The notes: generated from the sequence alone by a model not told the origin. A stretch of 64,000 nt of DNA from Candidatus Gottesmanbacteria bacterium (GCA_963809665.1 CAWEKC010000005.1:11878-75877); one strand, 5' to 3'. Positions 13,690 through 37,269 are shown, counted from the first letter of the stretch. Numbers and translations are program-made.

Positions 13690-13701
13690 CTTGCCGATGG
13701 G

Positions 13702-13772: not shown

Positions 13773-13797
13773 GTTGGAACAGTTAATTATATCAAAT

Positions 13798-14880: not shown

Positions 14881-14939
14881 ACAAAAGGGTGCCCTTCAGG
14901 GTATCACGTAAAAATTTATTGTGCAAATCGGCAGTAGAA

Positions 14940-17322: not shown

Positions 17323-19458
17323 TCAGAGCACTTTATAAATGACCGTTTCGCCGGAGGTGAAGACAGGAGTCCCTAGCTCGTTGAATTTCGATTCCTGAAG
17401 ATTGGTAAATTTCTGCCGTTCCAGTGTTCCGACAAAAATATATCTCACCTGATATTTTTCCAAAACCGCTTTCGTCTCATTGATATCCGTTGATTCATAA
17501 ATCAGCTTCACTTCTTCTTTGCGCGGCGCAACGATGTCATAGGACCCGCGCCAGAGCCATTCATGGACGGACCATCCCACAATGGTCGGTATCCCAGTAA
17601 ACACGCTTACCTGGTCGTAATCGGTGTAACTGTCTCCGTCGGCTTCCACAAGCACGGGATTGTGGCCTAATTTCCCATTTTTAAGTCCTTCATTCAACCA
17701 TTGAATTCCCGCCCAATTATCCTGATACTGGGTACTGATCCATCCCGTCCCGTTAATTCCCTCATACTGTTTCAGGCTATTGAAATACGACCGTACGCTG
17801 AAAATGGGATAAATGGACACCAGGAACAGTTGCGGGGCTAATAATATAAAAAACAGCATCCGTTTTTTGTGCCGTGTCATCGTAGCGATCACATATCCGG
17901 AAATAATCGAAAACATGATAAATGCCTGATACCCCAGTTTGAACATTGTGTTGCTACGGAAATGCATGGGGTAGATATCTTTAAAATAGAAAAATTCAGG
18001 AAAAATAATAAGAAGAATTGAAAACACAAAAAATATTCCCAGCAGGAGATCCTGATGTTCCGGCAATTTATTACGTGTGATTTTTTTAATCAACGGGACG
18101 AGTAAAAATAATCCGCAGTAGATGAAAAATCCCCACAGCAACCACATCATCCACAGCGGGCTATGCTGGCACTTTTCCACTCCCTCAAACAGAACCGGCC
18201 CGAATTTCGTATCGGCAAGAGCCGCGGGCGGACAATTGACGGCAATCCCCGAAACAAACGATTTGAAATATAGTAAAAACGGCAAACTGCATATACCCGC
18301 CGTAATTATCGTAATGCCGCCCGTAATGGCCGCCTTTTCCCATGATAGCTTTTTGAAAACCGCGTTGAATACAACTAACGCTATGAGAAATAATCCCAGA
18401 TATATCGGCCCGTCCAGTGCGTTGGTCATCAGGAGCACGCTGCACAAAAATCCGTAAAAAATATAGATACCCCATTCGCTTTTTTCCTGCCTGCCGGCAG
18501 GCATATCCATAAACAACCGTATAAGAAGCGCTATGGCCAAAAGCACAAACGGGATTGACAGTACGTGCCCGTGGACGTCCGACACGACAAACGAGTAGCT
18601 CGGAAATTCATGGATCGTATACGGGATAAACCGCGTAGCATTGGCATACCAGTAACGGTTCAGGCCGTCCGGCAGGCGGGAAATGAAATTCCCGATCGGC
18701 CACAGAATTGTCCAGAACGGCACAACCTTGTCCCCATCATACCCCTGGGTAAACGCGTAAATCGTCTGCATGTTGCCCGCAAGGGTTACCAGAAATGCGG
18801 TAAAGAGTCCTCCCCCGATTTTCCCGGCAATACTCATCCCTTTTCTGACGCGTAACAGTTGCACCCCGATACCAAACGACATGGTGCAGGTGAATGCAAA
18901 AATCGCCGCCAGCATAAGATTAAACGTATACGTAAGATCGATACCGCTCATCCGTGTCAGGACCGCCATGACGGTATGCCCGAAATAATAGTAGTTAATG
19001 GTGCCTCCGGCGTACCACATATCCGGCGCCGGAAAAAATTTGCTATCAAGGATGGATTTGGTAAAACCGAAATCCATAAATTTTTCAAGATTATGGATGC
19101 TCGGCTCGTGCGCTTTTACCCAGGACCACAATAAAAGTGCGGCAAAAAAGAACAGTTCCTCCGATACCATACGGAGAGCGTTATTCCGTATATTTCCCTT
19201 TTCCCCTGAATTTTTTCTCCGGAGGATTACTCCGGCTGCAAATGTGAGTCCCATGGCGCCCCACACAGCCCCCTGAGTAAACGGGATGATGTGGAGTACT
19301 CCGGCCAAATACACGAGGAACGTCACTACCGCCATACCCACGGCTTTGGAGAAAATATACGATAACCCTAATTTTCGGGTGAGAGGATATGCCACCGCGC
19401 CGATCAAAAATAACGTTCCCCACCATTGGAAAACTATTACCACATCTGACATCGGCAT
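17323..19458 (-). CDS. DUF2298 / Chlor_Arch_YYY family polytopic membrane protein (putative GT-C-like)
   Basis: 711 aa, multi-TM, with the signature GGTINYYYFGH (YYY motif). Carries the palindromic element at 18486-18503 (MPAGRQ). Confidence 0.6.
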   Translation of the reverse strand: MPMSDVVIVFQWWGTLFLIGAVAYPLTRKLGLSYIFSKAVGMAVVTFLVYLAGVLHIIPFTQGAVWGAMGLTFAAGVILRRKNSGEKGNIRNNALRMVSEELFFFAALLLWSWVKAHEPSIHNLEKFMDFGFTKSILDSKFFPAPDMWYAGGTINYYYFGHTVMAVLTRMSGIDLTYTFNLMLAAIFAFTCTMSFGIGVQLLRVRKGMSIAGKIGGGLFTAFLVTLAGNMQTIYAFTQGYDGDKVVPFWTILWPIGNFISRLPDGLNRYWYANATRFIPYTIHEFPSYSFVVSDVHGHVLSIPFVLLAIALLIRLFMDMPAGRQEKSEWGIYIFYGFLCSVLLMTNALDGPIYLGLFLIALVVFNAVFKKLSWEKAAITGGITIITAGICSLPFLLYFKSFVSGIAVNCPPAALADTKFGPVLFEGVEKCQHSPLWMMWLLWGFFIYCGLFLLVPLIKKITRNKLPEHQDLLLGIFFVFSILLIIFPEFFYFKDIYPMHFRSNTMFKLGYQAFIMFSIISGYVIATMTRHKKRMLFFILLAPQLFLVSIYPIFSVRSYFNSLKQYEGINGTGWISTQYQDNWAGIQWLNEGLKNGKLGHNPVLVEADGDSYTDYDQVSVFTGIPTIVGWSVHEWLWRGSYDIVAPRKEEVKLIYESTDINETKAVLEKYQVRYIFVGTLERQKFTNLQESKFNELGTPVFTSGETVIYKVL
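18486..18503. repeat. palindromic element copy C (CCTGCCTGCCGGCAGGCA), in frame in the DUF2298 gene (MPAGRQ)
   Basis: 16-nt perfect palindromic core TGCCTGCCGGCAGGCA. Confidence 0.75.
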
Positions 19459-19490: not shown

Positions 19491-20711
19491 ATGAAAGTTG
19501 CGGTTGTCGGCGGCGGTTTCACGGGACTTGCCGCGGCATATGAACTGACAAAACATGGGGCCACGGTGACGCTGTTTGAATCTGCACCGGTAGTTGGGGG
19601 GTTGGCGCACGGATTCAAAAAGGCCGGTTGGACATGGCACCTAGAATATGCCTATCACCACTGGTTTACCGGTGACCGCGCGGCACTGGATCTGATTAAA
19701 GAATTAGGCCTCACACAGAAACTTATTATTACCCGGCCGATTACTGCTTCCCTGTATGATGGAAAGCCGTATGAATTAGATTCACCCGTGAATTTATTAA
19801 CATTTCCGGGGCTTTCACTATCCGATAAGTTCCGTACTGCGGCGCTCCTTGGATTTCTTAAAATCAATCCATTTTGGAAACCTTTGGAAAATATCTCTGC
19901 TGAACACCTTTTAACCTCAATAGGTGGTCGGCGTTCATACGCCATGCTTTGGGAACCGCTACTTGCCGGCAAGTTCGGTACCTTGGCACCAACTATCCAG
20001 GCAGCTTGGTTCTGGGCGCGGATAAAAAAGCGGACGCCGCGTTTAGTATATATGGAGGGAGGCTTCCATACGCTGATTGCTGCACTCGAAAGCACTATAA
20101 AAAAAGGGGGCGGTATAATCCGCACGAATACCACGGTTGCTTCAATGAATGACCTGTCAGGATTTGATAAAATTTTATTTACCGTACCCAGCCCGGTTGC
20201 CCAAAAAATCGTTCCTCAACTCCGGATCGATCTTATCCCCCATCTCACGGCACAAACCTTAATTCTGGAAACCGACAGCCCGGTTCTGAAAAACGTGTAT
20301 TGGCTTAATATCACGGACCGTTCGTTTCCGTTTTTAGCGGCAGTATTCCACACAAATTTTATGGAAAAAAAATATTACGGTGGTCACCACCTGACATACT
20401 TCGGCAATTATCTTCCGGCGGATCACCCCTATCTTTCCATGACCAAAGATCAATTATTGAAAAAATTCATGCCGTATATCAAACGTCTTTCACAAAATTT
20501 TCCAATAAAAATTTTAGACTCTTTTATATTTACCGGATCGTTTGCCCAGCCGGTCCACCAACTGCATTATTCATCCCATACACCAAAACTTATTACATCC
20601 ATTCCGAATGTCTATATGGCCAACATGGACAGTATCGTACCCTGGGATCGTGGGACCAATTATGCTATTGAATTAGGACAAAAGGCAGCGCAGAAAATCA
20701 TGGAAACATGA
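19491..20711 (+). CDS. FAD-dependent oxidoreductase (amine oxidase / protoporphyrinogen oxidase-like)
   Basis: N-terminal dinucleotide-binding motif VAVVGGGFTGLAAAYEL...LFE...GGL. 406 aa. Stop overlaps the next gene's start. Confidence 0.65.
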   Translation: MKVAVVGGGFTGLAAAYELTKHGATVTLFESAPVVGGLAHGFKKAGWTWHLEYAYHHWFTGDRAALDLIKELGLTQKLIITRPITASLYDGKPYELDSPVNLLTFPGLSLSDKFRTAALLGFLKINPFWKPLENISAEHLLTSIGGRRSYAMLWEPLLAGKFGTLAPTIQAAWFWARIKKRTPRLVYMEGGFHTLIAALESTIKKGGGIIRTNTTVASMNDLSGFDKILFTVPSPVAQKIVPQLRIDLIPHLTAQTLILETDSPVLKNVYWLNITDRSFPFLAAVFHTNFMEKKYYGGHHLTYFGNYLPADHPYLSMTKDQLLKKFMPYIKRLSQNFPIKILDSFIFTGSFAQPVHQLHYSSHTPKLITSIPNVYMANMDSIVPWDRGTNYAIELGQKAAQKIMET

Positions 20712-22333
20712 AAAAACTACTTATTTTTATCATAATTTTTGGAGCCATTCTGCGCTTTACCGCAATCAACTGGGATTCGTTCGGCGCGTTCCACCCGGAC
20801 GAAAGAAATATTTCCTGGGCCGTGACACGTATCCGGTTTTTCTCGCAGATGAACCCGAAATTTTTCGCGTATGGGGGGTTGCCGGTCTATCTGTACCGCG
20901 CGCTGGGCGAAGGCGTTGTAGCGGCGACACATAACGATATCTGGCTTGCAGACTGGGGGCACATTGCCGTTATCGGGCGCTCCGTTTCTGCCGTACTGTC
21001 GACCATAAGCATATTCTTAATCTACGTAGCCGGCGCCGCGTATTTCACTCCCGGAGTCGGACTTCTTGCGGCTTCACTCCTTGCGTTTTCCCCATGGGCA
21101 ATACGGGAAGCGCATTTCGAAACCACCGAAACCATGCTGGTATTTTTCCTACTGGCTATGAGTATCGTTGCGCGCCGGCTATTCCAAAAACCAAACCGCC
21201 GCAGCGTCGTACTTATCGGGTTAGTGTGGGGCCTCGCTATGGCGGCCAAAACTACGAGCATACTGTTCGGCCTTATACCAACCGCAGCCATCTGGTTTCC
21301 GCATCACATCTTTAAAAATATTCCTAAAAAAATCCTGTACACGTTCATGTTGGGCTGTACATCTGTTTTTATTTTCTTCCTTTTCTCTCCGTATACGCTC
21401 CTGGACTTCACACATTTCCGCGAGTCCATGACGTATGAATCCGGAGTGGCCCTGGGGCGTTTTTCGGTTGTCTATACACTTCAGTTTCTGAATACCACTC
21501 CGTATCTTTTCCAACTGCAAACAATGCTCTGGCAGGCGGGGCCGTTAGGTATCATCGGAATGTTCGGTCTTATCGGACTGGTAATCATAGTGTTCAGGAA
21601 AAAATTTTATCTTGTGCCGTTGTTACTATTCCCCGTTCTCTATTTTAGTTGGGTCGGTTCGTGGTATGCAAAATTCAACCGCTACAACGTGCCGTTCTTA
21701 CCGTTTGTCACCATTGCGGCGGCATGGTTTTGTGTTGTCATCAGTAAACGTTTTCGTATAGCCGGCACAGCGTTAACTCTGCTTGTACTTTCCGCAACCA
21801 TCTTGTGGGGACTGGCTAATTGGACTGTATACCTGCGGCCCCAAACGCGTTTGACTGCATCCGAATGGATGTTTACCCATATTCCCTCAGGTGCCACGAT
21901 CTACACGGAACACTGGAATGACGGACTGCCGATCGACCTGCCTGCGCAGGCAGGCCTGCCGGATGCAGTTAGGTATAACCGCGAACTACTTACAGTATAC
22001 GACGAAGACAATGCAGCCAAAAAAAACTACTATGCCGATAAGCTTGTCACCGGAGATTTCATCGTCCTATCGACCCGGCGTATGTGGGCTACGATGCCGC
22101 GGCTTGGTGAAAAATATCCGCTGACAAAATTATTTTACCAACGGTTATTAGACGGATCTTTAGGATACAAAGAGGTCGGCCGCTTTACGTCCTATCCGCA
22201 ACTATTCGGCGTCTCTGTCAATGATGACGGCGCGGAAGAATCCATCCAGGTCTTTGATCATCCCACGGTCTTAATTTTCCAAAACGTAGCGCACTATTCC
22301 AATGGGGAATATCTCACATTGTTGACGCCATAA
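20708..22333 (+). CDS. GT-C family 39 / ArnT-like glycosyltransferase
   Basis: 541-aa multi-TM protein with an N-terminal FHPDERN DE-motif loop and a soluble C-terminal domain. Carries the palindromic element at 21937-21954 (LPAQAG). Confidence 0.7.
   Translation: MKKLLIFIIIFGAILRFTAINWDSFGAFHPDERNISWAVTRIRFFSQMNPKFFAYGGLPVYLYRALGEGVVAATHNDIWLADWGHIAVIGRSVSAVLSTISIFLIYVAGAAYFTPGVGLLAASLLAFSPWAIREAHFETTETMLVFFLLAMSIVARRLFQKPNRRSVVLIGLVWGLAMAAKTTSILFGLIPTAAIWFPHHIFKNIPKKILYTFMLGCTSVFIFFLFSPYTLLDFTHFRESMTYESGVALGRFSVVYTLQFLNTTPYLFQLQTMLWQAGPLGIIGMFGLIGLVIIVFRKKFYLVPLLLFPVLYFSWVGSWYAKFNRYNVPFLPFVTIAAAWFCVVISKRFRIAGTALTLLVLSATILWGLANWTVYLRPQTRLTASEWMFTHIPSGATIYTEHWNDGLPIDLPAQAGLPDAVRYNRELLTVYDEDNAAKKNYYADKLVTGDFIVLSTRRMWATMPRLGEKYPLTKLFYQRLLDGSLGYKEVGRFTSYPQLFGVSVNDDGAEESIQVFDHPTVLIFQNVAHYSNGEYLTLLTP
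21937..21954. repeat. palindromic element copy D (CCTGCCTGCGCAGGCAGG), in frame in the GT39-like gene (LPAQAG)
   Basis: 18-nt perfect palindrome, followed by a third partial half-site CCTGCC. Confidence 0.8.
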
Positions 22334-22790
22334 CAAAATCGCGCATTATTCTATTCTCTAAGGGAGATTGACAGCCTGCCCAACTATCAATCCCCCATTA
22401 TAAAACAGAACTCTGCGCGACTTTTTTGAAATAACTTTTCTTGCTCAGTAATTTACCTTTAGCACGACTCGCCGCGATTGTATATCGAGAATTCCATATT
22501 GTCAACGGGATAACGCGCGGAGAACATAATAAAAAATACCATACAGCAAAACACGTAAAAAATTATTGTTTTTTTGGAGAAAATCCTGAAGGTTTTGGAG
22601 AACTGGAAACTTCCCGATCAAACGGGCTAAATAAAATATTCAGCTTCACTTTTTTATTTGACAACGCAGAAATGCGTTGATATCGTGATCAAATAGATAT
22701 TGTTCTTTTGCCCAAAAAACAATATCAACACTAAAAGGCATTACTACTCGTAGGCCATCCAAAGTCTAGCGGTAGTGATGCTTTTTTTCC

Positions 22791-22808
22791 GCTGCCTGCG
22801 CAGGCAGG
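22791..22808. repeat. palindromic element copy E (GCTGCCTGCGCAGGCAGG), intergenic
   Basis: 16-nt perfect core preceded by a T-run on the + strand. Lies just 3' of the small minus-strand ORF. Confidence 0.75.
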
Positions 22809-22970
22809 TTAGAGCGTAAACACCGGAATACTTAACCCTTTATCTTTCAGCTTCTGGAACTGTTCCTTTACTTCTGCCTCAAACCGTTCCCTCTCGCGGG
22901 TCATCGGCGATTTACGTTCCGTTTTAACGCCAAAACGGCCGCCCAACCCTAAACGCATTAAAAGTAGTTT
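22809..22970 (-). CDS. small hypothetical protein (~53 aa)
   Basis: MKLLLMRLGLGGRFGVKTERKSPMTRERERFEAEVKEQFQKLKDKGLSIPVFTL. A TTGACA-like hexamer and a GGATG spacing lie upstream. Palindrome copy E lies immediately 3' of the stop. The track ORF is longer (to 23021). Confidence 0.25.
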   Translation of the reverse strand, partial: KLLLMRLGLGGRFGVKTERKSPMTRERERFEAEVKEQFQKLKDKGLSIPVFTL

Positions 22971-23190
22971 CATGTTCATACATCCATTCAAACACGACTG
23001 CAATCTCTTGTCAAGTCCCATAGGTTTTTTATATACGGAAATTGTGATGACTTATAGTTAAATATATATTAATTAGAAGGTATTAACGGTCTATAATTAT
23101 TTAGGAAAATAATTGTGGATAACTTGGGGAAACAGAAAACTTGCGGATTGGTTATTTTACCTATAATGTAGTAGTAGGCAACTTAGGATC

Positions 23191-24465
23191 ATGAAACATA
23201 AAATAATAGCATTTATTTTATTCTGGACGGCAATAATCTTTTTCGGACTATTTCCCCTTCCCCGCCCGACGTATGCAGACTATCAGGAACTTGGAAAAAA
23301 AGAGTTGTTGGGTCCGATTGGTCAAAATAGTTCCCAATATTCACCATGGATCATGCACGGACAGGGATGGGGCAGCTACGTGATGTATTACTGTAAAAAT
23401 TCGCCGATTAACAATGTCTGGCGCGACCGGGTATATCGGATTGAAAACTTTAATGACGGCATATCAGGAAGCTGGATCGGCGACCAACCGGTAATCGAGG
23501 GTTCTGACGGCCAAAATGATGATTTGTCCTGTTCCCCCGGGGTTCTTATAGACAATCAAAATACGTGGCATATGTATTACGTCACGGCAAACAGGAACAC
23601 CGGTTGTGATGTGTACCTATACCACGCAACAGCAACCGCCCCGGGAACAAATTGGGTGAAACAAGGTGTTATCAATATCGATGGGAAACCGATGTCCGCT
23701 GTTCCAAACTGTAATCTTGAAACACCAAGTCCGTATTTTATTAACGGTACATATGTACTTTATTATGCAGGCGCCCCCGGTAAAATAGTTCGTCTTGAAA
23801 GTACTGACGGATATAATTTTACCAATCAGACAACCATAAGTCTTCGCGAACCGTTGGGAGGATCCGGCAGGGTAATAATCGTTAACGGACAGTATTACTA
23901 TACGTACAACAGGAATCCTACAAGCGGATACTTACCCTCCACACAAATACTTATAACACAATCGTCGGACGGGATACATTTCTCTCCATCTGAATTACTT
24001 ATGGCTTCGTCAGGATCAGGTTGGGATGGTGACAGGATGTGGAGCCCTTTTCCGATGTTTGTTAATAATGAATTACGGGTGTATTACGCCGGCAATATCG
24101 GTAATTATGGGTGGTTTGGTGCAAATACGTCAATTGGCGTCCGTTGGTTCAGTATGCCAACTATGACTACGCCTACGCCAACGAAAACACCCACGCCGAC
24201 GCCAACCAGAACCCCGACACCTACCCCGACACGCACTCCTACATTGACTCCCACGGCAACAATCAGATTAACCCCGACTCCTACTCCTGCTTCCATACCC
24301 GGTGATCTCAATGGTGATCATACGGTCAATATTTTTGACTACAACATACTGATCGGCGATTTCGGGAAAACCGGTTCACCGGGCTGGATTCCGGCTGATA
24401 TCAATAAAGACGGAAAAGTAGATATTTTCGATTATAATGCGCTGGTAGGTAATTTTGGAAAATAA
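23191..24465 (+). CDS. secreted beta-propeller (glycoside-hydrolase-like) protein with Pro/Thr linker and C-terminal type-I dockerin
   Basis: N-terminal signal peptide. Repeated WHMYY/YVLYYAG/YYYTYN blade-like motifs. Linker [25 protein letters not shown]. Two dockerin repeats [21 protein letters not shown] and [21 protein letters not shown]. Confidence 0.7.
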
Positions 24466-24494
24466 TTTACTGTATATGGAACGCATGTTGCGAT

Positions 24495-25682
24495 GTGAAT
24501 ATGCCGAAACGTAAATCAATACAGAGTATCTCCGATACTGATCATCCGGTTGAACCCATCGACCAAATGAATACGTCACCGGTACGGTATTCAAAAATAC
24601 ATATATTGCCTCTCATACCCATTCTATTCCTGCTTGTCGTATTAGTGGGAGTGGTAATACTGTCGCAGAAAAGAACGCAGGACCTGCGCAGCCGTGCTAC
24701 TTTAATCGGCCCTAAGCTTTCTCTCTCACCCGCTACGAAAACCGCGGCAGTAGGGGAAACATTTTATCTGGCAAGCACACTGGATACCGATACGGATAAG
24801 GTGTCCGCGGCCGAACTGCATCTTTCATACGATCCGACCGCCGTACAAATACTCGGGTTTGCCCCCGGCAGCGTTTTGCCGGTCGTCCTGATGCAGGAAT
24901 CACACAACAACGGCGCCATATCCGTCACCCTTGGAGCACAGCCGTCAAACCCGTATAAAGGTGTCGGTATTTTGGGAACGTGGAATATAAAAATTCTTGC
25001 TGCAAAACAATCATCAGTCAGTTACACCAATTCCACCCAGGTTGCAGCCATAGGAAAACCGACAAATGCGCTCGTTTCAATGACGGGCAGCTCAATCACC
25101 GGGGGCTCAGGCAGCACGCCAACTCTTACTCCCACACCGACAAAAACACCGACACCGACGCCCACCCGTACCCCCACGCCGACCCGTACGCCGACACCGA
25201 CAGTAACACCAACTCCCGGCGCAATGGCAACTCCCACGCCGACCCGTACGCCGACGCCGACAGTAACACCAACTCCCGGCACAACGGCAACTCCCACGCC
25301 GACCCGTACGCCGACGCCGACCCATACACCTGCCCCGACTCCCACACCAACCAATACACCTACACCCACGCCCACGCCTTCTCAGGGCACACCAACGGCA
25401 ACACCAACTCCCACACGCACGCCGACACCAACCGCAACCGCGACACCGAAGCCGCCGTTTAATCCGTTTCGCTTCTTATACCCAACCTCAACGCCTACAC
25501 CGACGCCAAAAAAGACATCATCTACAGGATTTGGACAATTCAACACAGAGACTCAATATTCCGTTACATCAGTAACGCCGTCTCCCACAGAGGCACCAAT
25601 ACAACAAGCACCTGCTCCGACATTTATTGAACAGATTATTAACACAATCGTTTTATTCTTCAAAAATCTTTTCGGAAAATAA
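24495..25682 (+). CDS. membrane-anchored cohesin-domain protein with long Pro/Thr-rich linker
   Basis: N-terminal TM helix. ~120-aa region with cohesin-like beta-sandwich pattern ([44 protein letters not shown]...[10 protein letters not shown]). ~130 aa of (T/P)n repeats. Confidence 0.55.
25140..25330 (+). repeat. tandem ~60-nt coding repeats (Pro/Thr linker)
   Basis: ACTCCCACGCCGACCCGTACGCCGAC(A/G)CCGACAGTAACACCAACTCCCGGC repeated about 2.5 times. Encodes [17 protein letters not shown] units. Confidence 0.6.
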
Positions 25683-25694
25683 CGCCAGGAAGAA

Positions 25695-26516
25695 TTATTT
25701 TATTCTCGCAAAAAACAGCTGTCCTGCCGCGGTCTGATGGATCTTGGTGACGATCACAAGGATGTCCTGCCCTATCCTGTCACGGGCGTTGTCTACGACG
25801 ACCATGGTGCCGTCTGCCAGATACCCTACGCCCTGGGCCCGTTCCTTCCCTTCATGAGTAACACGCACGGTAAATTCTTCGCCGGGCATGAGTGATACTT
25901 TAAGCGCCTGGGCGATATCATTAATATTGAGGACCTTAACACCCTGTATACGCGCCACATGTGCGAGGTTAAAATCAACCGTCAGGAGTCTTACTTTCTG
26001 GTTTGACCAACGTTTTGCAAGTGCCACAAGCTTCGCATCCACTTCTTTCACATCCGCAGGATCTGCGGATACAACTTTGACGCTGAGAAGTTTATTTACT
26101 TTCTGTCCTTTGAGTTTGTTGACGATATCTAAGCCCCTCCTCCCTTTGGCGCGCCGAAGGGAATCATCCGAATCGGCAATGTGCTGAAGCTCCCCTAAAA
26201 TAAACTGCGGAATTATGAGCGTACCGGTAATAAAACCGCTGTTGGCGATCGGCAGGATTCTGCCGTCAATAAGAACGCTGGTATCGACCAAAATAGGATA
26301 CTCGCCCAATACATCATCTTTTCCGTTCGTCTTGGGTCGGCGGATAAACGGGCGCGCAGTAAACCGGCCGATATTCGTAAGATTTTTGACGATCTCCGCG
26401 GCGAGGGCCCGCGTAAACTCCGCCGGGGGTTTTGCCACGATAGGTACCTGCGTAACCGGTTTTTTTGCCTTGGTCAATAAATTCTTTTTATTATTCACCG
26501 TTAGGGATTGTACCAC
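25695..26516 (-). CDS. PIN/TRAM domain protein (YacL-like)
   Basis: PIN domain (ILVDTSVLIDGRI) plus C-terminal TRAM-like beta-barrel. Immediately downstream of radA, as in Firmicutes radA-(disA)-yacL synteny. Confidence 0.7.
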   Translation of the reverse strand: MVQSLTVNNKKNLLTKAKKPVTQVPIVAKPPAEFTRALAAEIVKNLTNIGRFTARPFIRRPKTNGKDDVLGEYPILVDTSVLIDGRILPIANSGFITGTLIIPQFILGELQHIADSDDSLRRAKGRRGLDIVNKLKGQKVNKLLSVKVVSADPADVKEVDAKLVALAKRWSNQKVRLLTVDFNLAHVARIQGVKVLNINDIAQALKVSLMPGEEFTVRVTHEGKERAQGVGYLADGTMVVVDNARDRIGQDILVIVTKIHQTAAGQLFFARIK

Positions 26517-26547
26517 AAAAAAACTGGGGGGTAGCTGAGAATAACCG

Positions 26548-27837
26548 TCAACCGATAGCCAGACCTGCCTGTTTTACGTTATGAACCGTTTTCGGGGAAA
26601 TGATTGTCGTAAATCCGAGACGCTTGGCTTCCTTCGTCCGCCGCTCGTCCGAACCGATTGAACGTACCTCTCCTAAGAGCCCTACCTCGCCGAACACCGC
26701 GGTTTTAGGGTCCAGCGGTTTATTTTTAAACGAAGAAAGAATAGACAATGCAACCGCAAGATCCGCGGCCGGTTCCGTAATCTTCATGCCCCCGCTCACA
26801 TTGACGAATACATCAAAATTTCCCAACGGAATAGTAAGGCGCTTCTGCAAGATGGCAACAAGCAGCTGCAACCGGTTGTAATCTATCCCGTTTGCAATTC
26901 GTCGCGGCATTGCCAACTGGCTGGGCACCACCAGCGCCTGGATTTCCACTAACATCGGCCGGGTTCCCTCCATCACGACGGTGACAATACTGCCGGGAAC
27001 ATTTTTTACCCTATCCTGCAAAAATAGAGCGGAAGGATTTGCTATCTCCTTCAGGCCTTTCTCGTCCATTTCAAATATTCCCACTTCTTCGATTGCCCCG
27101 AACCGATTTTTGTAGGTACGCAAAATTCTGGCATTGGCAAACCGTTCCCCTTCCAGATATAAAACCGTGTCCACCATATGTTCCAATACTTTCGGCCCTG
27201 CGATTGTCCCCTCTTTCGTAACGTGTCCTATGATGATAATGGAAATACTTTTACGTTTGGCAACGCCCACCAGTAACTCGGCGCAATGCCGGATCTGCCC
27301 CACCGACCCCGCCATTCCGTCCAAATCCCCCGACGATAATGTCTGGATGGAATCCACAACCACCAGTCTTCCCTCAAGACTATCAACGATATGTTCGACT
27401 GACGTCTCTGCCAATACACTGATATTCCCGCCTTCAACACCGAGCCGTTTCGCGCGTAGTTTAATCTGTTCCGCCGATTCCTCACCGGATACGTATAGTC
27501 CTCCGGTTTTGGCAATGACATGAAGCAGCAAGGTTGACTTCCCGATCCCCGGGTCGCCGGCCAGCAGTGTTACCGATCCCGGTACAATCCCCCCGCCCAT
27601 CACGCGGTCAAACTCCGCAAACCCGCTTTTGAGGCGGTTTTTTTCAATATGTTTTACGTCTGAAAGCCTCTGAGGTTGAGAGGTAGAAATATTTTTCAAA
27701 AATTTATTTTGTGTTTTTTCTTCTTCCTTAACCGTCTCAACCAGAGAATTCCATTCACCGCAGTTCGGACACTTCCCGTACCAGCTGGGGCTCTCAAACG
27801 CGCACTGCTGGCAAACGTAGGATGTCCGGAGTTTCAT
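26548..27837 (-). CDS. radA: DNA repair protein RadA/Sms
   Basis: N-terminal C4 zinc finger (CQQCAFESPSWYGKCPNCGEW), RecA-like Walker A GDPGIGKST, KNRFG motif, Lon-like C-terminal domain. Confidence 0.9.
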   Translation of the reverse strand: MKLRTSYVCQQCAFESPSWYGKCPNCGEWNSLVETVKEEEKTQNKFLKNISTSQPQRLSDVKHIEKNRLKSGFAEFDRVMGGGIVPGSVTLLAGDPGIGKSTLLLHVIAKTGGLYVSGEESAEQIKLRAKRLGVEGGNISVLAETSVEHIVDSLEGRLVVVDSIQTLSSGDLDGMAGSVGQIRHCAELLVGVAKRKSISIIIIGHVTKEGTIAGPKVLEHMVDTVLYLEGERFANARILRTYKNRFGAIEEVGIFEMDEKGLKEIANPSALFLQDRVKNVPGSIVTVVMEGTRPMLVEIQALVVPSQLAMPRRIANGIDYNRLQLLVAILQKRLTIPLGNFDVFVNVSGGMKITEPAADLAVALSILSSFKNKPLDPKTAVFGEVGLLGEVRSIGSDERRTKEAKRLGFTTIISPKTVHNVKQAGLAIG

Positions 27838-27895
27838 TGTGGGGATATTCTACAGCATATCGACAATACGCGATAGACGGTATTGACTTAAATAT

Positions 27896-28963
27896 GTGGA
27901 CAACGCATTATGGAAGTTAAGATTTAATTGTATGACAGAAAAATCACCAGCAGCAACGAGTCAACAGAATCCTTCGGATGGGAAATACACACGTGATCCG
28001 CTCGCCGTTGTGGAACCACCGGACCCTTGGTATTTGGGCGGATGGAAAGCCCTAAAAAATCCCAAAGTTGCTCCGTACTTGGGGGTCGGATTATTTCTGA
28101 TCATCGGGATCATATTTACTGTCGCAACCCTGAATCCTCTGCAGATGACTACCCGTGCAACAGCCCATCAAGCGTCGATCACCGTTCTGCCGGCTAAACT
28201 TTCCCTGCCACCAAACGGAACCCTGCAGGTGTGGGCTACAGCAGACAGTCCCGTAGCATTTATCAACGTCCAGATCACGTTTAACCCGGCGGTCGTGAAG
28301 CTAACCACGGAACCCGTTCTGACGACATCAACATGGGGAAGAATCGTCAAACTATCTACCATGGCTGATACCAACACTTCCGGCAAACTGGATATGGTTA
28401 TAGGATTGGATCCCGCGCACGTCCAGTCTCCTCCCAATGGGACATTCCAGATTGCAACCCTGCAGTTCGAAGCAAATACTGCAAATTCTAATGTAACTAC
28501 CTCCGTCGTCGCGTCTGCCATATCCCAACTGGTGGCGGTGGATACGACCGTATTCACCGTCACGGCAGCGGGAAGTACCATTACCGTGAACCCTCTTCCC
28601 TCTCCGACACCCACCACGACTCAGGGCGTCACCCCGATACACACCCGTAAACCGACTCCGACGACTCCGCCTAACGATATCACCCCGCCGGTGGTAACCA
28701 TCACGTCTCCTACGCATGGATCTGTCGTTCCGAATAAAGGCAGCATCTCCATTAAGGTCACGGCATCTGATGCTAGCAAAATTGCCACCATCACAATCAC
28801 CATGGATGGCACCATCGATAAAACCTGCAAAAACACAGCTTCTTGCCAAGATAAAATCGCGGTTAATAAAATACCGGCGGGGAGCCACACTATCACGGCA
28901 ACGGCAATGGACAAAAGCACGAACCATAACACCGCAACAACCACCATCGCCGTAACGAAATAG
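27896..28963 (+). CDS. membrane-anchored protein with cohesin-like domain, Pro/Thr linker and Ig-like domain
   Basis: TM helix near the N-terminus. Cohesin-like segment (ITVLPAKLSLPPNGTLQVWATADSPVAFINVQITFNPAVVKL...FQIATLQFEA). PT linker. C-terminal Ig-like domain (VVTITSPTHGSVV...TATAMDKSTN). Confidence 0.5.
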   Translation: MDNALWKLRFNCMTEKSPAATSQQNPSDGKYTRDPLAVVEPPDPWYLGGWKALKNPKVAPYLGVGLFLIIGIIFTVATLNPLQMTTRATAHQASITVLPAKLSLPPNGTLQVWATADSPVAFINVQITFNPAVVKLTTEPVLTTSTWGRIVKLSTMADTNTSGKLDMVIGLDPAHVQSPPNGTFQIATLQFEANTANSNVTTSVVASAISQLVAVDTTVFTVTAAGSTITVNPLPSPTPTTTQGVTPIHTRKPTPTTPPNDITPPVVTITSPTHGSVVPNKGSISIKVTASDASKIATITITMDGTIDKTCKNTASCQDKIAVNKIPAGSHTITATAMDKSTNHNTATTTIAVTK

Positions 28964-32447: not shown

Positions 32448-32475
32448 ATAAAAACCGCTCCAATGTCCCCCAGCC

Positions 32476-32591
32476 TTGACCTATCTTCCCGGTTCCTTGC
32501 GGAATAGGTATTGTCAGCGCTGACGCGTTTCACTTCCGAGTTCGGAATGGGATCGGGTGGGTCCACGTCGCTCAAAAGACTGGAAGACACC
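32476..32591 (-). rRNA. rrf: 5S ribosomal RNA
   Basis: The reverse complement contains CCCAUUCCGAACUCGGAAGUGAAACGCGUCAGCGC (loop C / helix III consensus) and complementary termini (GGUGUCUUCC / GGAAGAUAGG). Confidence 0.75.
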
Positions 32592-33013
32592 GGAGCGGTT
32601 CTTCCAAAATAAAAGTATTCACTTGTTAATAAAGTAGTTGTACGTAAGGGATAATCCATGCGGACTTCCTTACTGTTTTACAATTTGTTGGAATAAAGAA
32701 CGAATGTACGTTTGTAAACGTAAACCTTTGTTCTCCACAACATCGATCGATTAGTACGAGTAAGCTAAGCACCTTACGGTGTGTACACTTCTCGCCTATC
32801 AAACCCGTATTCTCCGGGTGATCTGTAACGATTCTTCATCTTGGGTTGGGCTTGGTGCTTGAGATGCTTTCAGCACTTATCCCGTCCGGATCTAGCTACC
32901 CAACGTTGCCTGTTGTCAGACAATTGGCACACCAGGGATCCGTTCCTCCCGGTCCTCTCGTACTAGGGAGAACTCCCCTCAAGAATCTAACGCTTGCACA
33001 GGATAGAGACCGA

Positions 33014-33325
33014 CAAATTTGTTAATCTGAATGTCGCCATTCAGTTCGGACTATATCTTCCACGCCTCATCGGCGGGTCTGACATATAGTCTCTGAGGGG
33101 TCCGTCGTATGACAGACTTCCCTGCTGATTGTCTGCATTGAACGATTTTTACTCGTAAAAGTACGTTCAAATACTCAGAGTTTCCAGCAAATAGTCAGAT
33201 TTACACTTTGCACAACATTGCGCAAAGTATGCTTTCAAAATATAACAGTAATAATTCTCGATGGAGTTTCCAAAAAACGTCTGAAAGCGGACAGCTCTTC
33301 TTACGTACGGTCGTACGTATTGTCT
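33014..33325 (-). mobile_element. group I intron (ORF-less) at 23S position ~L2593 (E. coli numbering)
   Basis: It interrupts GAGACAGU|UCGGUC. It contains Q-like AAUCAGCAGG, R CCUCAGAGACUA and S AAGAUAUAGUCC core elements, followed by a P9 GCGA-tetraloop hairpin. It ends with G. Confidence 0.6.
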
Positions 33326-33361
<36 letters not shown>

Positions 33362-33472
33362 CTTTTAACCGGCGAACAGCCGGACCCTTGGGACCTTCTC
33401 CAGCCCCAGGATAGGATGAGCCGACATCGAGGTGCCAAACCGCCTCGTCGCTATGGACTCTCGGAAGCGATC

Positions 33473-33505
<33 letters not shown>

Positions 33506-33830
33506 AAGCCCGCTACCTCCCACGAGGTATGCGAGGATCACTAACACCTACTTTCGTACCTGCTCGACTTGTATGTCTCGCAGTCAAGCTGGCTTATGCG
33601 TTTGCACGACAAGTCCTGATTTCCATTCAGGATTAGCCAACCTTTGTACGCCTCCGTTACACTTTTGGAGGCAACCTCCCCAGTTAAACTGCCCACCAGA
33701 CAGTGTTCTTCTCCCGGATTTTTATGCGGGAGTAAGTAAGATTTCGTCATTCCAAAGAGTGGTATTCCATGTTTCGCCCGAAGGCTCCCACCTATTCTCG
33801 ACAGTCAAAATAACGTCCTCAGTGCCAAGT

Positions 33831-33861
<31 letters not shown>

Positions 33862-33939
33862 ATGTGTAAGTAGGCCGCATCTTCACAGCCATTTCAATTT
33901 CGCCGGGTAACAGTTCAAGACAGTCACTAAGTCATTCTA

Positions 33940-33974
<35 letters not shown>

Positions 33975-33981
33975 CTTCGCT

Positions 33982-34258
33982 CATAAATCGTGTTAGCTTC
34001 ATGTCGCCATGAAGATCAGACTATATCTTCTCGCCGATGTGATCGGGATCGCACGTGTAGTCGTTGAGGATTTCTCGATATTGTTATCGAGATCTTTCCT
34101 GCTGATTGACTCCACTCGAACAGATTATTACCTTGTGGTACTGTTGATATTCAGAGTTATTCCAGCATATAGTGCAATTTTTCTATATACCCACTTTCCT
34201 ATTTGCACGGTGAATATACGAGAGGTTTGGCTACCTCACTATGGCAGCGAAAATATCT
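33982..34258 (-). mobile_element. group I intron (ORF-less) at 23S position ~L1931
   Basis: It interrupts CUAUGGU|AGCGAAGUUCC. P1 is formed by exon CUAUGGU with intron GCCAUAG, giving a U.G pair at the splice site. Q AAUCAGCAGG, R-like UCAACGACUA, S AAGAUAUAGUCU, P9 GCGA hairpin. 3' end ...GAUUUAUG. Confidence 0.6.
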
Positions 34259-34272
34259 ACCATAGAACAGTT

Positions 34273-34982
34273 CACTTTGTTATATACTCCGGTTGGTTAC
34301 GTAATCTCATAGTCGCCTATGAGGTCGGACTATATCATCTCCTGATTACATCGGAGGTCGAGCGTATAGTCTCTGAGGATTCTTGAAGAGGAAATACATC
34401 GTTAATACCATATTTTCTTGTTCTTCCTTTTCCTTCATTGATTGTTTCCCGAAGAAGAAGGATTTTCTTTAACCCGGATTGAGTTCTATGCTCCCCTCTC
34501 TCCATCAAATCGGCGATCTTGCAAAAAATCGCAAAATTTCGCTTTTTTGACTGGGAAAGGACCGGATATCGTCGAAAATACGGAATAACGTGCTTGATTA
34601 AATCGTCCGGATTCGTAGCATCAAATGAATGAAGTCCGTCCCGTTTTCGAACCTTAATAATCCCGCATTGAAGTTCATCCTTCAGTATTTGTAATATTGT
34701 CGGATCCTTCTGCGATACATTAAAGCTCATGACGACTTGCCAGTTGACCTTATAGTCAGCTTTCCGTCGTAACGAAACGTTAAAACTTCCCTCACCTTCT
34801 ACAAACCCGGCTAAGAAATAACCAAGTTTTTCCTTTTTCAAGTCTTTCCTGCTGATTTGCTGCACTGACCGCATTGTCACCAGTATATCTGGTAGCGTCA
34901 GATACTTCAACCGTTCGCTTTTCCGCGACGGTACAGCTCTTCCAGCATTTAGTCAACTTTTACAACTACAAAACTGTATTTT
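34273..34982 (-). mobile_element. group I intron at 23S position ~L1917 carrying a LAGLIDADG homing endonuclease ORF
   Basis: It interrupts GUAACUAU|AACUGUUC (H69). Q AAUCAGCAGG at ~34855 lies inside the ORF 5' end. R AUAGUCUCUGAGG and S GAUGAUAUAGUCC follow at 34363/34327. It ends ...CAAAGUG. Only 14 nt of exon (34259-34272) separate it from the L1931 intron. Boundaries are +/-2 nt because of an AA ambiguity. Confidence 0.6.
34335..34910 (-). CDS. LAGLIDADG family homing endonuclease (single-motif), intron-encoded
   Basis: LAGFVEGEGSF motif in a ~190-aa protein, located inside the 23S rRNA L1917 intron. The real start may be an internal Met (for example MRSVQQ). Confidence 0.85.
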   Translation of the reverse strand: MKYLTLPDILVTMRSVQQISRKDLKKEKLGYFLAGFVEGEGSFNVSLRRKADYKVNWQVVMSFNVSQKDPTILQILKDELQCGIIKVRKRDGLHSFDATNPDDLIKHVIPYFRRYPVLSQSKKRNFAIFCKIADLMERGEHRTQSGLKKILLLRETINEGKGRTRKYGINDVFPLQESSETIRSTSDVIRR

Positions 34983-36430: not shown

Positions 36431-36469
<39 letters not shown>

Positions 36470-36682
36470 GTATTCATGTATTTAGCCTTGGATCGTGGTC
36501 GACCCAGATTCCCACAGACCCTTCGTGGTCCATGGTACTTAGGAACCAATTAGCGGAAATTATCATGTCGAATACGAGGCTTTCACTCTCTCTGGCCGCC
36601 TATTCCGAGGCGTTCTTCTACAACAATTTCATCACATATCACTGGCCCTACAACCCCAATCCTTGCGGATTGGTTTAGGCTG

Positions 36683-36714
<32 letters not shown>

Positions 36715-37196: not shown

Positions 37197-37269
37197 TGGA
37201 CCCGGGCGGAGTCGAACCGCCTGCCTCTTCATTGCAAATGAAGCGTTCAACCAGGTAAACTTCGGGCCC
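37197..37269 (-). tRNA. tRNA-Ala (anticodon UGC), first gene of the tRNA-23S-5S operon
   Basis: Acceptor GGGCCCG with G3:U70, D-arm GUUU-ACCUGGUU-GAAC, anticodon stem CUUCA/UGAAG with loop UUUGCAA, T-arm GGCGG-UUCGACU-CCGCC. Confidence 0.8.

What the first reader, a model, noticed from the sequence alone, without database searches (positions are those of the whole stretch)
23191..28963. Cohesin-dockerin module pair in a putative CPR genome
The secreted protein 23191..24465 ends in two canonical type-I dockerin repeats ([14 protein letters not shown]…, [14 protein letters not shown]…). The adjacent membrane-anchored protein 24495..25682 carries a cohesin-like beta-sandwich segment, and so does a second protein (27896..28963) 2 kb away. 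All three have PT-rich linkers. This looks like a minimal cellulosome-like cell-surface tethering system displaying a beta-propeller, glycosidase-like enzyme. Such systems are well known in Clostridia but poorly described in ultra-small bacteria.
Basis: partly seen in the sequence, partly recalled or inferred. Interest (0 to 1): 0.7.

Follow-up and report, generated by a model that had tools for sequence, protein, structure and literature searches.

The report
Cohesin-dockerin enzyme tether in a CPR bacterium
A secreted enzyme-like protein carrying a dockerin "plug" sits next to a membrane protein carrying the matching cohesin "socket"; relatives in ultra-small groundwater bacteria keep this gene pair but swap the enzyme, so it is probably a simple cell-surface enzyme tether, a known kind of system in a little-studied lineage.

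Summary
P1 (23191-24465) has a signal peptide, a roughly 295-aa all-beta domain, a PT linker and a C-terminal dockerin (Pfam PF00404, 30 bits against a cut-off of 22.9). P2 (24495-25682) has an N-terminal transmembrane helix and a cohesin (PF00963, 31.2 against 24.1). P3 (27896-28963) gets no Pfam cohesin hit, but its family profile matches P2's family (hhalign 96%) and solved cohesins. Its AlphaFold model (pLDDT 85.5) matches only cohesins among the top 50 PDB hits.

In 8 of 11 distinct related loci, 1-3 genes with the same dockerin subtype lie directly upstream of a P2-type cohesin gene. The cargo varies: beta-helix, weak GH39, BNR, SASA esterase. A syntenic locus adds a GH5-dockerin gene. 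The pair is therefore most likely a cognate surface tether, with P2 the likelier partner of P1. P3-type cohesins sit among a different dockerin subtype in a Gottesmanbacteria genome.

It is not a cellulosome: each protein has one cohesin and there is no CBM. P1's propeller resembles GH130/43/117/32 folds only weakly, and its CAZy family is unassigned. Expressed cohesin and dockerin proteins have already been noted in CPR Microgenomates, so this is a new variant of a known kind.

The parts
23191..24465 (+). P1: secreted cargo protein made of a signal peptide, an all-beta propeller-like domain, a PT linker and a dockerin
   Evidence: ORF; Pfam Dockerin_1 above the gathering cut-off
23191..23277 (+). 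P1 Sec-type signal peptide (aa 1-29, MKHK + hydrophobic core + TYA|D)
   Evidence: Read from the sequence; hydropathy peak at aa 2-25. The cleavage site is inferred.
23278..24156 (+). P1 N-terminal domain (about 295 aa), probably a five-bladed beta-propeller with five 'hhhYY' strands; CAZy family unassigned
   Evidence: Sub-threshold Pfam GH32N (20.7 against 22.1 bits) and BT_1020 propeller. The 3-sequence profile gives only marginal PDB hits (E 0.011-0.96), eight of nine to glycoside-active enzymes: GH130 phosphorylases, GH43, a chain deposited as 'GH32 N-terminal', and BT1020. The AF2 single-sequence model failed at pLDDT 36.
24142..24294 (+). P1 PT-rich linker
24298..24462 (+). P1 dockerin (aa 370-424): two 22-residue repeats with EF-hand-like Ca loops and an 'IFDYN..LV.NFGK' helix
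24495..25682 (+). P2: single-cohesin anchoring protein, 29 nt downstream of P1, with no predicted + strand terminator in between
24597..24662 (+). P2 transmembrane helix (aa 35-56), preceded by a 34-aa tail rich in basic residues
   Evidence: Kyte-Doolittle maximum 3.21; the same layout occurs in 11 of 13 homologues
24678..24698 (+). Conserved juxtamembrane motif Q-D-x-R-S-R-A (function unknown; possibly a processing site)
   Evidence: Alignments
24702..25106 (+). P2 cohesin domain (aa 70-204)
   Evidence: Pfam PF00963 31.2 bits against 24.1; 13 homologues all carry PF00963; marginal hit to CipA cohesin 1ohz_A; family profile hits type II cohesins 3l8q/1zv9
25098..25469 (+). P2 long PT linker, partly encoded by a 60-bp tandem repeat (25115-25321)
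25623..25679 (+). P2 C-terminal hydrophobic/amphipathic tail ([19 protein letters not shown]), shared with other long family members
   Evidence: L016 8438-9340
27896..28963 (+). P3: second membrane protein, with a divergent cohesin followed by a Big_7 Ig-like domain (the likely true start is ATG 27932)
28070..28132 (+). P3 transmembrane helix (aa about 59-79)
   Evidence: Hydropathy
28169..28591 (+). P3 divergent cohesin domain (aa 92-232)
   Evidence: 388 homologues; 7 of 61 reach Pfam Cohesin; hhalign against the P2 family gives 96.2%, E 2.2e-9; profile against PDB cohesins 6kg8/6kgc gives E 1.2e-3 and 3.9e-3; AF2 pLDDT 85.5; the Foldseek top 50 are all cohesins
28604..28714 (+). P3 PT-rich linker
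28688..28900 (+). P3 Big_7 bacterial Ig-like domain (aa 265-335)
   Evidence: Pfam PF17957 43.1 bits against 24.1

Best explanation
P1 and P2 form a two-gene cohesin-dockerin tethering cassette of a Patescibacteria (CPR, Microgenomates/Gottesmanbacteria-like) bacterium. P1 is exported through Sec. Its C-terminal dockerin folds around two Ca2+ ions and plugs into the single cohesin of P2, which is held in the cytoplasmic membrane by its N-terminal helix. This keeps the propeller domain, probably a glycan-active enzyme, at the cell surface instead of letting it diffuse away. The two dockerin repeats are almost identical, so either helix could make the contact, as in the dual binding mode of type I dockerins. 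P3 is a second membrane-bound socket from a divergent cohesin family that Pfam does not recognise in this protein. It most likely receives a different dockerin subtype encoded elsewhere in the genome.

Shown here: the domain identities, the membrane and secretion signals, and the conserved adjacency of genes carrying this dockerin subtype with P2-type cohesin genes.

Inferred: the physical binding, the partner assignment (P2 rather than P3), Ca dependence, the topology, and any enzymatic activity of P1.
For: Domains: the dockerin and the P2 cohesin both pass Pfam's curated cut-offs. P3 is a cohesin by hhalign (96%), by profile search against the PDB, by a direct HMM cross-hit to P2 (22 bits), and by a confident AF2 model whose top 50 PDB matches are all cohesins.

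Operon-like layout: the gap is 29 nt, the genes share a strand, and no terminator-like site lies between them.

Conserved pairing: 1-3 dockerin genes lie immediately upstream of the P2-family cohesin gene in the window and in L001/2, L004, L005, L009, L010, L011 and L012. L013 carries a cohesin-dockerin fusion and L016/18 has dockerin genes nearby.

Dockerin conservation: these dockerins are close homologues of P1's (E 1e-15 to 1e-25), with consensus [24 protein letters not shown]..[27 protein letters not shown].

Variable cargo: the cargo domains are unrelated to one another: beta-helix/GH141-like, GH39 (weak), BNR, SASA esterase, abhydrolase, DUF7705, plus a GH5 (45 bits) in the syntenic L016 locus. 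A constant plug and socket with swapped cargo is what a tethering module predicts.

Synteny: L005 and L016 continue with PIN-TRAM, and L016 also with RadA, as in the window.

Partner assignment: P3-family cohesins in Ca. Gottesmanbacteria GW2011 (L019) sit among 11 dockerin genes of a different subtype, DANGDGKVDGLDYVIWLNNYNK. This supports P2 as P1's partner.

Expression: cohesin and dockerin proteins were detected by metaproteomics in a Microgenomates MAG (10.1101/2021.08.21.457207).
Against: The cohesin of P2 lies only about 13 residues from the TM helix, while the 120-residue PT linker and a conserved C-terminal tail lie distal to it. That is an odd geometry for a display stalk.

The conserved Q-D-x-R-S-R-A motif after the helix could be a cleavage site. 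In that case P2 would not be N-terminally anchored.

Three loci with P2-family cohesins have no adjacent dockerin gene: L006/8, L014 and L015, the last with little upstream flank.

P1's domain has Ser-Pro where GH43 and GH32 have catalytic Asp-Pro motifs, by reading of the sequence and my knowledge of those families. All family hits are sub-threshold, so it may not be an enzyme.
Confidence: 0.7

Rival explanations
1. P2 is not an N-terminally anchored membrane protein. The hydrophobic helix acts as a long signal peptide that is cut at the conserved Q-D-x-R-S-R-A site. The mature cohesin is then held at the envelope by its C-terminal hydrophobic tail, with the PT linker as a stalk, or is released as a soluble adaptor. 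The cohesin-dockerin tethering still operates, but with inverted geometry.
For: The motif is conserved in both cohesin families and aligns in hhalign. More distant P2-family members (L014, L015, L005 5393-6418) have a short classical N-terminal signal-like segment followed by the same motif, and they end in a 'PVSG' + TM + basic tail that looks like a C-terminal sorting or anchor signal. Long members (window P2, L009, L012 8720-9880, L016 8438-9340) share a C-terminal F..ff..I..FF..LF.K tail. This geometry would place the cohesin at the far end of the PT stalk, which makes more sense for display.
Against: Eleven of 13 close homologues have a 30-60-residue N-terminal tail before the helix, which is typical of signal anchors and not of cleaved signal peptides. 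About half of them (roughly 200 aa) end right after the cohesin with no C-terminal anchor. The motif lies 12-13 residues past the hydrophobic core, which is far for signal peptidase I (my knowledge). P2's C-terminal tail is too short and too polar for a transmembrane helix (15-residue hydropathy maximum 1.39).
Confidence: 0.25
2. The dockerin of P1 does not pair with either neighbouring cohesin. Like many non-cellulosomal dockerins, it acts as a Ca-binding adhesin or stabilising module that targets a glycan, an S-layer, or a cohesin on another (host) cell. On this view the adjacency with P2 is only co-regulation of surface proteins.
For: Non-cellulosomal dockerins have been proposed as adhesins in other ultra-small bacteria (PMC10066038). 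An essential dockerin-domain protein of a Saccharibacterium was proposed to target host glycans (PMC10633639). No binding data exist for this family.
Against: The same dockerin subtype is found next to P2-family cohesin genes in 8 of 11 distinct loci despite unrelated cargo. A different dockerin subtype clusters with the other cohesin family. This co-variation of plug and socket subtypes is hard to explain without direct pairing.
Confidence: 0.12
3. It is a genuine cellulosome, that is, a multi-enzyme complex for degrading crystalline plant cell walls.
For: Cohesin, dockerin and PT linkers are the cellulosome's building blocks. Relatives carry GH5 and weak GH39 cargo. Bell et al. read the Microgenomates proteins this way.
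Against: Each scaffold has one cohesin. P1, P2 and P3 contain no CBM. The window has only one dockerin. The working definition used in the field requires a scaffoldin with at least 2 cohesins plus a dockerin-GH (PMC11557425; PMC13487519). The cargo range (esterase, BNR, beta-helix, sulfatase, PQQ propeller) is not cellulose-centred.
Confidence: 0.04

Closest known systems
Minimal two-gene cohesin/dockerin system ClcC-ClcD of Cellulosilyticum lentocellum (PMC13487519)
   Same: It is a predicted two-gene operon encoding one single-cohesin protein and one dockerin-bearing enzyme. The stoichiometry is one plug to one socket, and it does not meet the definition of a cellulosome.
   Different: ClcC carries a CBM3 and tethers the enzyme to cellulose, not to the cell. 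Here the cohesin protein has a transmembrane helix and no CBM, the gene order is dockerin first, the cargo is an unassigned propeller rather than GH5, and the host is a CPR bacterium.
Cell-anchoring single-cohesin scaffoldins of Clostridia (OlpA/OlpC-type type I cohesins of C. thermocellum; TM-helix single-cohesin proteins of Lachnoclostridium, H. luporum and C. cibarium, PMC11557425)
   Same: A single cohesin on a cell-bound protein directly displays dockerin-bearing proteins. OlpA and OlpC cohesin structures are among the fold matches to P3 (3ul4_A and 4dh2). TM-anchored single cohesins are described.
   Different: Those proteins are anchored by SLH domains or by C-terminal TM helices. Here the helix is N-terminal, with a conserved Q-D-x-R-S-R-A motif. 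Sequence identity to any solved cohesin is below 20%.
Non-cellulosomal cohesin and dockerin modules (Peer et al. 2009, cited; A. fulgidus cohesin 2xdh)
   Same: Cohesin and dockerin modules occur outside cellulolytic Firmicutes in small numbers per genome. 2xdh is a fold match (rank 15).
   Different: The parent proteins of that population are described as predominantly non-catalytic. In the P2-linked cassettes the dockerin proteins mostly carry CAZyme-like domains, and the pairing is fixed in gene order.
Cohesin/dockerin proteins expressed by Ca. Shapirobacterales (Microgenomates) in Olkiluoto groundwater (10.1101/2021.08.21.457207)
   Same: It is the same superphylum and habitat type. Cohesin-domain and dockerin-domain proteins were detected in the metaproteome.
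   Different: It is only a one-sentence annotation, interpreted as a cellulosome. It gives no architecture, gene order, anchoring, subtype analysis or recognition of the Pfam-invisible cohesin family.

Membership tests
Dockerin (Pfam PF00404, type I-like) | Profile HMM score at or above the curated threshold | tested here: met
   30.0 bits against 22.9, E 6.1e-7, aa 370-418
Dockerin (Pfam PF00404, type I-like) | Two duplicated segments of about 22 residues, each a 12-residue EF-hand-like loop with D/N at positions 1, 3, 5, 9 and 12 followed by a helix | tested here: met
   [12 protein letters not shown] and [12 protein letters not shown], each followed by YN.L.G.FGK. The pattern is conserved in 16 family members. 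Positions 10-11 are Ile-Phe rather than the Ser-Thr of C. thermocellum (for the canonical pair).
Dockerin (Pfam PF00404, type I-like) | Ca2+-dependent binding to a cohesin | not testable with these tools
   Needs ITC, pull-down or complex modelling
Cohesin (Pfam PF00963) - P2 | Profile HMM score at or above the curated threshold | tested here: met
   31.2 bits against 24.1; all 13 homologues are precomputed as PF00963
Cohesin (Pfam PF00963) - P2 | Nine-stranded beta-sandwich (jelly-roll) fold | not tested
Only sequence-profile hits to solved cohesins are available.
Cohesin (Pfam PF00963) - P3 | Profile HMM score at or above the curated threshold | tested here: not met
   P3 itself gets no PF00963 hit, and only 7 of 61 homologues reach E <= 0.01. 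Homology is instead shown by hhalign (96.2%, E 2.2e-9), by profile search against PDB cohesins (E 1.2e-3) and by an HMM cross-hit to P2.
Cohesin (Pfam PF00963) - P3 | Nine-stranded beta-sandwich (jelly-roll) fold | tested here: met
   AF2 pLDDT 85.5, pTM 0.78. Foldseek against the PDB gives cohesins of types I, II and III for all of the top 50, with best E 3.1e-9 and TM 0.72. Caveat: the MSA contained P2-family cohesins.
Cellulosome | [quoted passage not shown] | tested here: not met
   P2 and P3 each have one cohesin, the window has one dockerin, and P1's GH status is unproven
Cellulosome | Substrate-targeting CBM on the scaffoldin | tested here: not met
   No CBM family is found in P1, P2 or P3 at E <= 1
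Five-bladed beta-propeller glycosidases (GH32/43/117/130/143) | Family HMM above threshold, or a confident fold match | tested here: inconclusive
   GH32N scores 20.7 bits against a cut-off of 22.1, and the BT_1020 propeller 12.7. The homologue in L016 gives BNR_2 at 26.7 against 31.4. PDB profile hits have E 0.011-0.96 and go mostly to GH130, GH43 and a chain deposited as 'GH32 N-terminal'. The AF2 model is unusable at pLDDT 36.
Candidate Phyla Radiation / Patescibacteria genome | Phylogenetic placement of marker genes | not tested
   The evidence is circumstantial. The 23S rRNA carries two group I introns and a LAGLIDADG ORF, and it is not next to a 16S gene. The closest homologous loci are titled Patescibacteria or Ca. 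Gottesmanbacteria. The syntenic contigs carry '01um'/'02um' in their Hainich record names.

The most novel reading that the evidence does not exclude
Microgenomates-type CPR bacteria have a lineage-specific, multi-subtype cohesin-dockerin 'plug-board'. It would consist of N-terminally membrane-anchored single cohesins from at least two families, one of them largely invisible to Pfam with 388 or more 50%-identity clusters. It would also include many dockerin subtypes, cohesin-dockerin adaptor proteins, and cargo cassettes that are swapped in front of a constant socket gene. These ultra-small cells would use it to arm their surface with interchangeable glycan-attacking enzymes, possibly against host envelopes.
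Probability: 0.3. Interest if true: 0.65.

Novelty: new variant of a known kind. Interest (0 to 1): 0.45.

Why it matters
CPR bacteria have tiny genomes and are thought to depend on other cells, and how they organise their surface is largely unknown. A conserved cassette that holds secreted hydrolases on the cell through a cohesin-dockerin pair would explain how a cell with few resources avoids losing its exoenzymes. It also offers a testable handle on what glycans, environmental or host-derived, these organisms attack.

There is a practical consequence too. A large cohesin family (388 clusters) that Pfam recognises in only 7 of the 61 members scanned means that cohesin counts in CPR genomes are underestimated. 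The small orthogonal plug and socket pairs could also be useful parts for protein-display engineering.

Tried and rejected
- **BLASTP of P2 against P3** showed no similarity. This was superseded by profile methods.
- **Word-indexed homologue search with the P3 domain** found nothing. The exhaustive HMMER search then found 388 clusters.
- **Re-searching with the P3 profile** through the word index returned only 5 proteins. This limited the MSA allowed for structure prediction.
- **AF2 of the P1 propeller from a single sequence** failed at pLDDT 36, so I did not run a fold search on it.
- **The metagenome scan for P1 homologues** gave only 3 loci. The resulting profile was too shallow to assign a CAZy family.
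- **Exact look-ups of P1, P2 and P3** found nothing, mainly because public gene calls use different starts.
- **The dockerin profile against the PDB** put designed PPR proteins on top. These are repeat-sum artefacts with no single significant stretch and I disregarded them.
- **Complex prediction** of dockerin with cohesin was not possible with the tools and caps available.
- **A simple 'two specificity groups' picture** was considered and then softened, because P3-family members carry many different dockerin subtypes.

Full report
**1. Observation**

The three ORFs exist as described.

P1 (23191-24465, 424 aa) begins with a Sec-type signal peptide: MKHK, a hydrophobic core, then TYA|D, with a hydropathy peak at aa 2-25. 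An all-beta domain of about 295 residues follows. It contains five recurrences of a 'hhhYY' strand, then a PT linker (24142-24294). The protein ends in two almost identical 22-residue repeats, [22 protein letters not shown] and [22 protein letters not shown]. Pfam Dockerin_1 scores 30.0 bits against a gathering cut-off of 22.9 (E 6.1e-7). The best genuine PDB sequence match is a dockerin, 2y3n_B, at E 2.6e-5.

P2 (24495-25682, 395 aa) has these parts:
- a 34-residue N-terminal tail;
- a very hydrophobic helix at aa 35-56;
- a Pfam Cohesin domain (31.2 bits against 24.1, aa 78-196);
- a PT linker of about 120 residues, partly encoded by a 60-bp tandem repeat;
- a hydrophobic or amphipathic C-terminal tail.

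P3 (27896-28963; public gene calls start it at M13) has an N-terminal tail, a TM helix, a 150-residue domain, a short PT linker and a Big_7 Ig-like domain (43 bits).

A six-frame motif scan and custom HMMs find exactly one dockerin and two cohesin-type domains in the 64-kb window.

**2. Is P3 a cohesin?**

Direct tests were negative:
- no Pfam cohesin hit;
- no BLASTP similarity to P2;
- no PDB sequence hit;
- no word-indexed homologues.

An exhaustive HMMER search found 388 clusters at E <= 1e-3. Of 61 sampled members, 7 reach Pfam Cohesin (best E 1.8e-8), 10 carry a dockerin and 10 carry Big_7.

Four further lines of evidence agree:
- A profile of 140 domain sequences (139 homologues plus P3) aligns to the P2-family profile with hhalign probability 96.2%, E 2.2e-9, over 125 columns. 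The alignment includes the juxtamembrane motif.
- The same family HMM hits P2 itself at 22 bits.
- A 47-sequence profile hits the Clostridium acetobutylicum CipA cohesins 6kg8 and 6kgc end to end, at E 1.2e-3 and 3.9e-3.
- AlphaFold2 with a 16-sequence alignment gave pLDDT 85.5 and pTM 0.78. Foldseek against the PDB returned only cohesins in the top 50: types I, II and III and the archaeal non-cellulosomal 2xdh. The best hit had E 3.1e-9 and TM 0.72.

One caveat is that the alignment included P2-family sequences. Homology had already been established independently, however.

**3. Context and relatives**

The P2 cohesin has 13 homologues (33-69% identity), all precomputed as PF00963. Eleven of the 13 share the layout of tail, TM helix, Q-D-x-R-S-[RK]-A motif and cohesin.

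I retrieved their contigs and scanned one genome per GTDB species. I then scanned the loci for dockerins. The results per locus were:
- **L001/L002:** two dockerin genes (679 and 532 aa, weak beta-helix hits) end 2 nt before the cohesin gene.
- **L004:** three dockerin genes precede it: 591 aa, 589 aa with a weak GH39 hit, and 509 aa BNR.
- **L005:** a 508-aa BNR-dockerin gene precedes it, and a convergent TRAM gene follows, as in the window.
- **L009 and L011:** one dockerin gene precedes it. The one in L011 is a beta-helix protein.
- **L010:** three dockerin genes precede it: beta-helix/GH141-like, BNR, and SASA esterase with a GH core.
- **L012:** one dockerin gene (DUF7705), followed by a cohesin-dockerin fusion and another cohesin.
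- **L013:** a cohesin-dockerin fusion.
- **L006/8, L014 and L015:** no adjacent dockerin.

Counting the window, 8 of 11 distinct loci show direct adjacency on the same strand.

All these dockerins are close homologues of P1's (E 1e-15 to 1e-25). Their consensus is [24 protein letters not shown]..[27 protein letters not shown]. P1's propeller has no homologue among the cargos.

The only P1-domain homologues found (43-52% identity) also carry C-terminal dockerins. One of them lies in a syntenic Hainich groundwater contig, L016, whose gene order is:
- a dockerin protein;
- a cohesin-dockerin fusion;
- a GH5-dockerin protein (Pfam Cellulase, 45 bits);
- the P1 homologue;
- an AAA ATPase;
- two cohesin proteins;
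- PIN-TRAM on the opposite strand;
- RadA on the opposite strand.

In the window, P1 and P2 are 29 nt apart with no terminator-like site between them. A constant plug and socket with exchangeable cargo is the signature of a cognate tethering module.

**4. Which socket does P1 use?**

In Ca. Gottesmanbacteria GW2011_GWA2 (LCFP01000006.1, L019), two P3-family cohesins lie inside a cluster of 11 dockerin genes. Neither cohesin has a precomputed Pfam domain. The dockerin genes carry a different repeat, DANGDGKVDGLDYVIWLNNYNK. Their cargo includes:
- GH5/39-like domains;
- cadherin/Big_9;
- sulfatase-PKD;
- a PQQ propeller;
- CARDB;
- CBM96.

P1's dockerin belongs to the subtype linked to P2-type cohesins. 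P2 is therefore the likelier partner, and P3's partner is not in the window. This is an inference from co-localisation.

The picture is also richer than two groups. About 30 of the 150 listed P3-family representatives (plus 2 of the 4 proteins added) carry their own C-terminal dockerin, of many different subtypes. This suggests adaptor-type proteins and several orthogonal pairs.

**5. Mechanism**

The best-supported reading has four steps:
- P1 is exported by Sec.
- Its dockerin binds Ca2+ through the two D/N loops.
- The dockerin plugs into the P2 cohesin, which is held at the membrane.
- The propeller is thereby retained at the cell surface.

The near-perfect internal duplication of the dockerin suggests a dual binding mode.

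The anchoring geometry is unsettled. The cohesin is only about 13 residues from the helix, while the PT linker and a conserved C-terminal tail point away from it. Long family members share that tail, and more distant ones end in 'PVSG' + TM. An alternative is therefore cleavage at the conserved motif followed by C-terminal anchoring. Against this, the long N-terminal tails and the many 200-residue homologues that end right after the cohesin favour an uncleaved signal anchor.

The activity of P1 is unknown. The evidence for a five-bladed glycosidase-like propeller is all sub-threshold:
- Pfam GH32N scores 20.7 bits against 22.1, and the BT_1020 propeller 12.7.
- The L016 homologue gives BNR_2 at 26.7 bits against 31.4.
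- The 3-sequence profile hits only at E 0.011-0.96, to GH130 phosphorylases, GH43, a chain deposited as 'GH32 N-terminal' and BT1020.
- The single-sequence AF2 model failed.

The fold class is therefore likely, but the family is unassigned.

**6. Host organism**

Several observations are consistent with a Patescibacteria (Microgenomates/Gottesmanbacteria-like) genome, although no marker phylogeny was run:
- The window carries a 23S rRNA of 4.2 kb with two group I introns and an intron-borne LAGLIDADG ORF.
- A 5S gene is present, but no 16S gene is adjacent.
- The closest loci are titled Patescibacteria or Ca. Gottesmanbacteria.
- The syntenic contigs come from Hainich groundwater samples labelled '01um' and '02um'.

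RadA and the amine oxidase of the window are on a public 191,671-bp contig.

**7. Comparison with what is known**

The closest analogue in function is the two-gene ClcC/ClcD 'minimal cellulosome' of Cellulosilyticum lentocellum. It has one cohesin protein and one dockerin-GH5, but its scaffold bears a CBM3 and targets cellulose rather than the cell. Single-cohesin anchoring proteins with TM helices are reported in a few Firmicutes. Non-cellulosomal cohesin and dockerin modules are known in all three domains of life (Peer et al. 2009, cited).

For CPR, the searchable library yielded only two passing remarks:
- Expressed cohesin and dockerin proteins in Ca. Shapirobacterales, read as a cellulosome.
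- An essential dockerin-domain protein in a Saccharibacterium.

The system here fails the cellulosome definition: it lacks a scaffoldin with at least 2 cohesins and it has no CBM. It works like an anchoring cohesin-dockerin pair.

**8. Verdict**

It is a new variant of a known kind, with these features:
- a single cohesin anchored by an N-terminal TM helix;
- a conserved operon-like arrangement with swappable dockerin cargo;
- a CPR lineage as host;
- a second, large cohesin family that Pfam mostly misses.

Interest is moderate. The module type is textbook, but the lineage, the cassette logic and the hidden family are useful and directly testable.

Noticed in passing
window 32468-36955 (- strand): The 23S rRNA gene spans 4.2 kb and contains two group I introns (33027-33251 and 33997-34222). 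A LAGLIDADG homing-endonuclease ORF lies at 34335-34910. A 5S gene sits at 32468-32584. No 16S gene is adjacent: upstream there is a tRNA-Ala(TGC) at 37196-37269 and then protein-coding genes. This pattern is typical of CPR rRNA operons.
   Followed up: partly
window 24678-24698 (P2) and 28142-28159 (P3); homologues P0001-P0011 and L014/L015: A conserved motif, Q-[DE]-x-R-[SK]-[RK]-A, lies just outside the N-terminal hydrophobic helix in both cohesin families and aligns in hhalign. Its function is unknown. It could be a processing site or an envelope-contact element.
   Followed up: partly
window 25623-25679; L009 1782-3530; L012 8720-9880; L016 8438-9340; L014 7920-8948; L015 656-1813; L005 5393-6418: Long P2-family proteins share a C-terminal hydrophobic or amphipathic tail (F..ff..I..FF..LF.K). 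More distant members instead end in 'PVSG' followed by a TM helix and a short basic tail, which resembles a C-terminal sorting signal.
   Followed up: no
L019 (Ca. Gottesmanbacteria GW2011_GWA2, LCFP01000006.1) 1-16010: This island holds 11 dockerin-bearing genes, with cargo including GH5/39-like, cadherin/Big_9, sulfatase-PKD, PQQ propeller, CARDB and CBM96. They surround two P3-family cohesin genes (7992-8804 and 12932-13471) that have no Pfam annotation. The dockerin subtype, DGLDYVIWLNNYNK, differs from P1's.
   Followed up: partly
P0014-P0167 (P3-family representatives): About 30 of the 150 listed representatives (plus P0164 and P0166 from the second search) carry their own C-terminal dockerin, of many different subtypes (for example DLSILLSNWNK, IDYTLFMQYWWE, ILDIGIVIDNY, and a single LIDFEIWRRA repeat). 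This suggests adaptor proteins and several orthogonal cohesin-dockerin pairs.
   Followed up: partly
window 25115-25321: The PT linker of P2 is encoded by a 60-bp tandem repeat (3.5 copies, 85-96% matches). This region is prone to length variation or assembly collapse.
   Followed up: no
window 10983-13349, 17323-19458, 20708-22333: Three large polytopic membrane proteins of glycosyltransferase-like families lie just upstream of the cassette: YfhO-like (sub-threshold), DUF2298 and PMT_2. They might O-glycosylate the PT linkers, as happens in cellulosomal linkers. This is pure speculation.
   Followed up: no
window 22334-23190: A gap of about 860 bp in a lower-GC stretch of the window (0.418 over 22001-24000) lies upstream of P1. 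It holds a 70-aa ORF on the - strand (22809-23021) that is also called as a gene in a Logan assembly and has no Pfam hit. In that assembly (ERR12037368) P1 is called as two genes of 65 and 297 aa, so a frameshift or strain variant may exist.
   Followed up: no
window 13616-13772 and 37196-37269: There are three tRNA-Ala genes with anticodons CGC, GGC and TGC. Two of them are in tandem, 10 nt apart.
   Followed up: no
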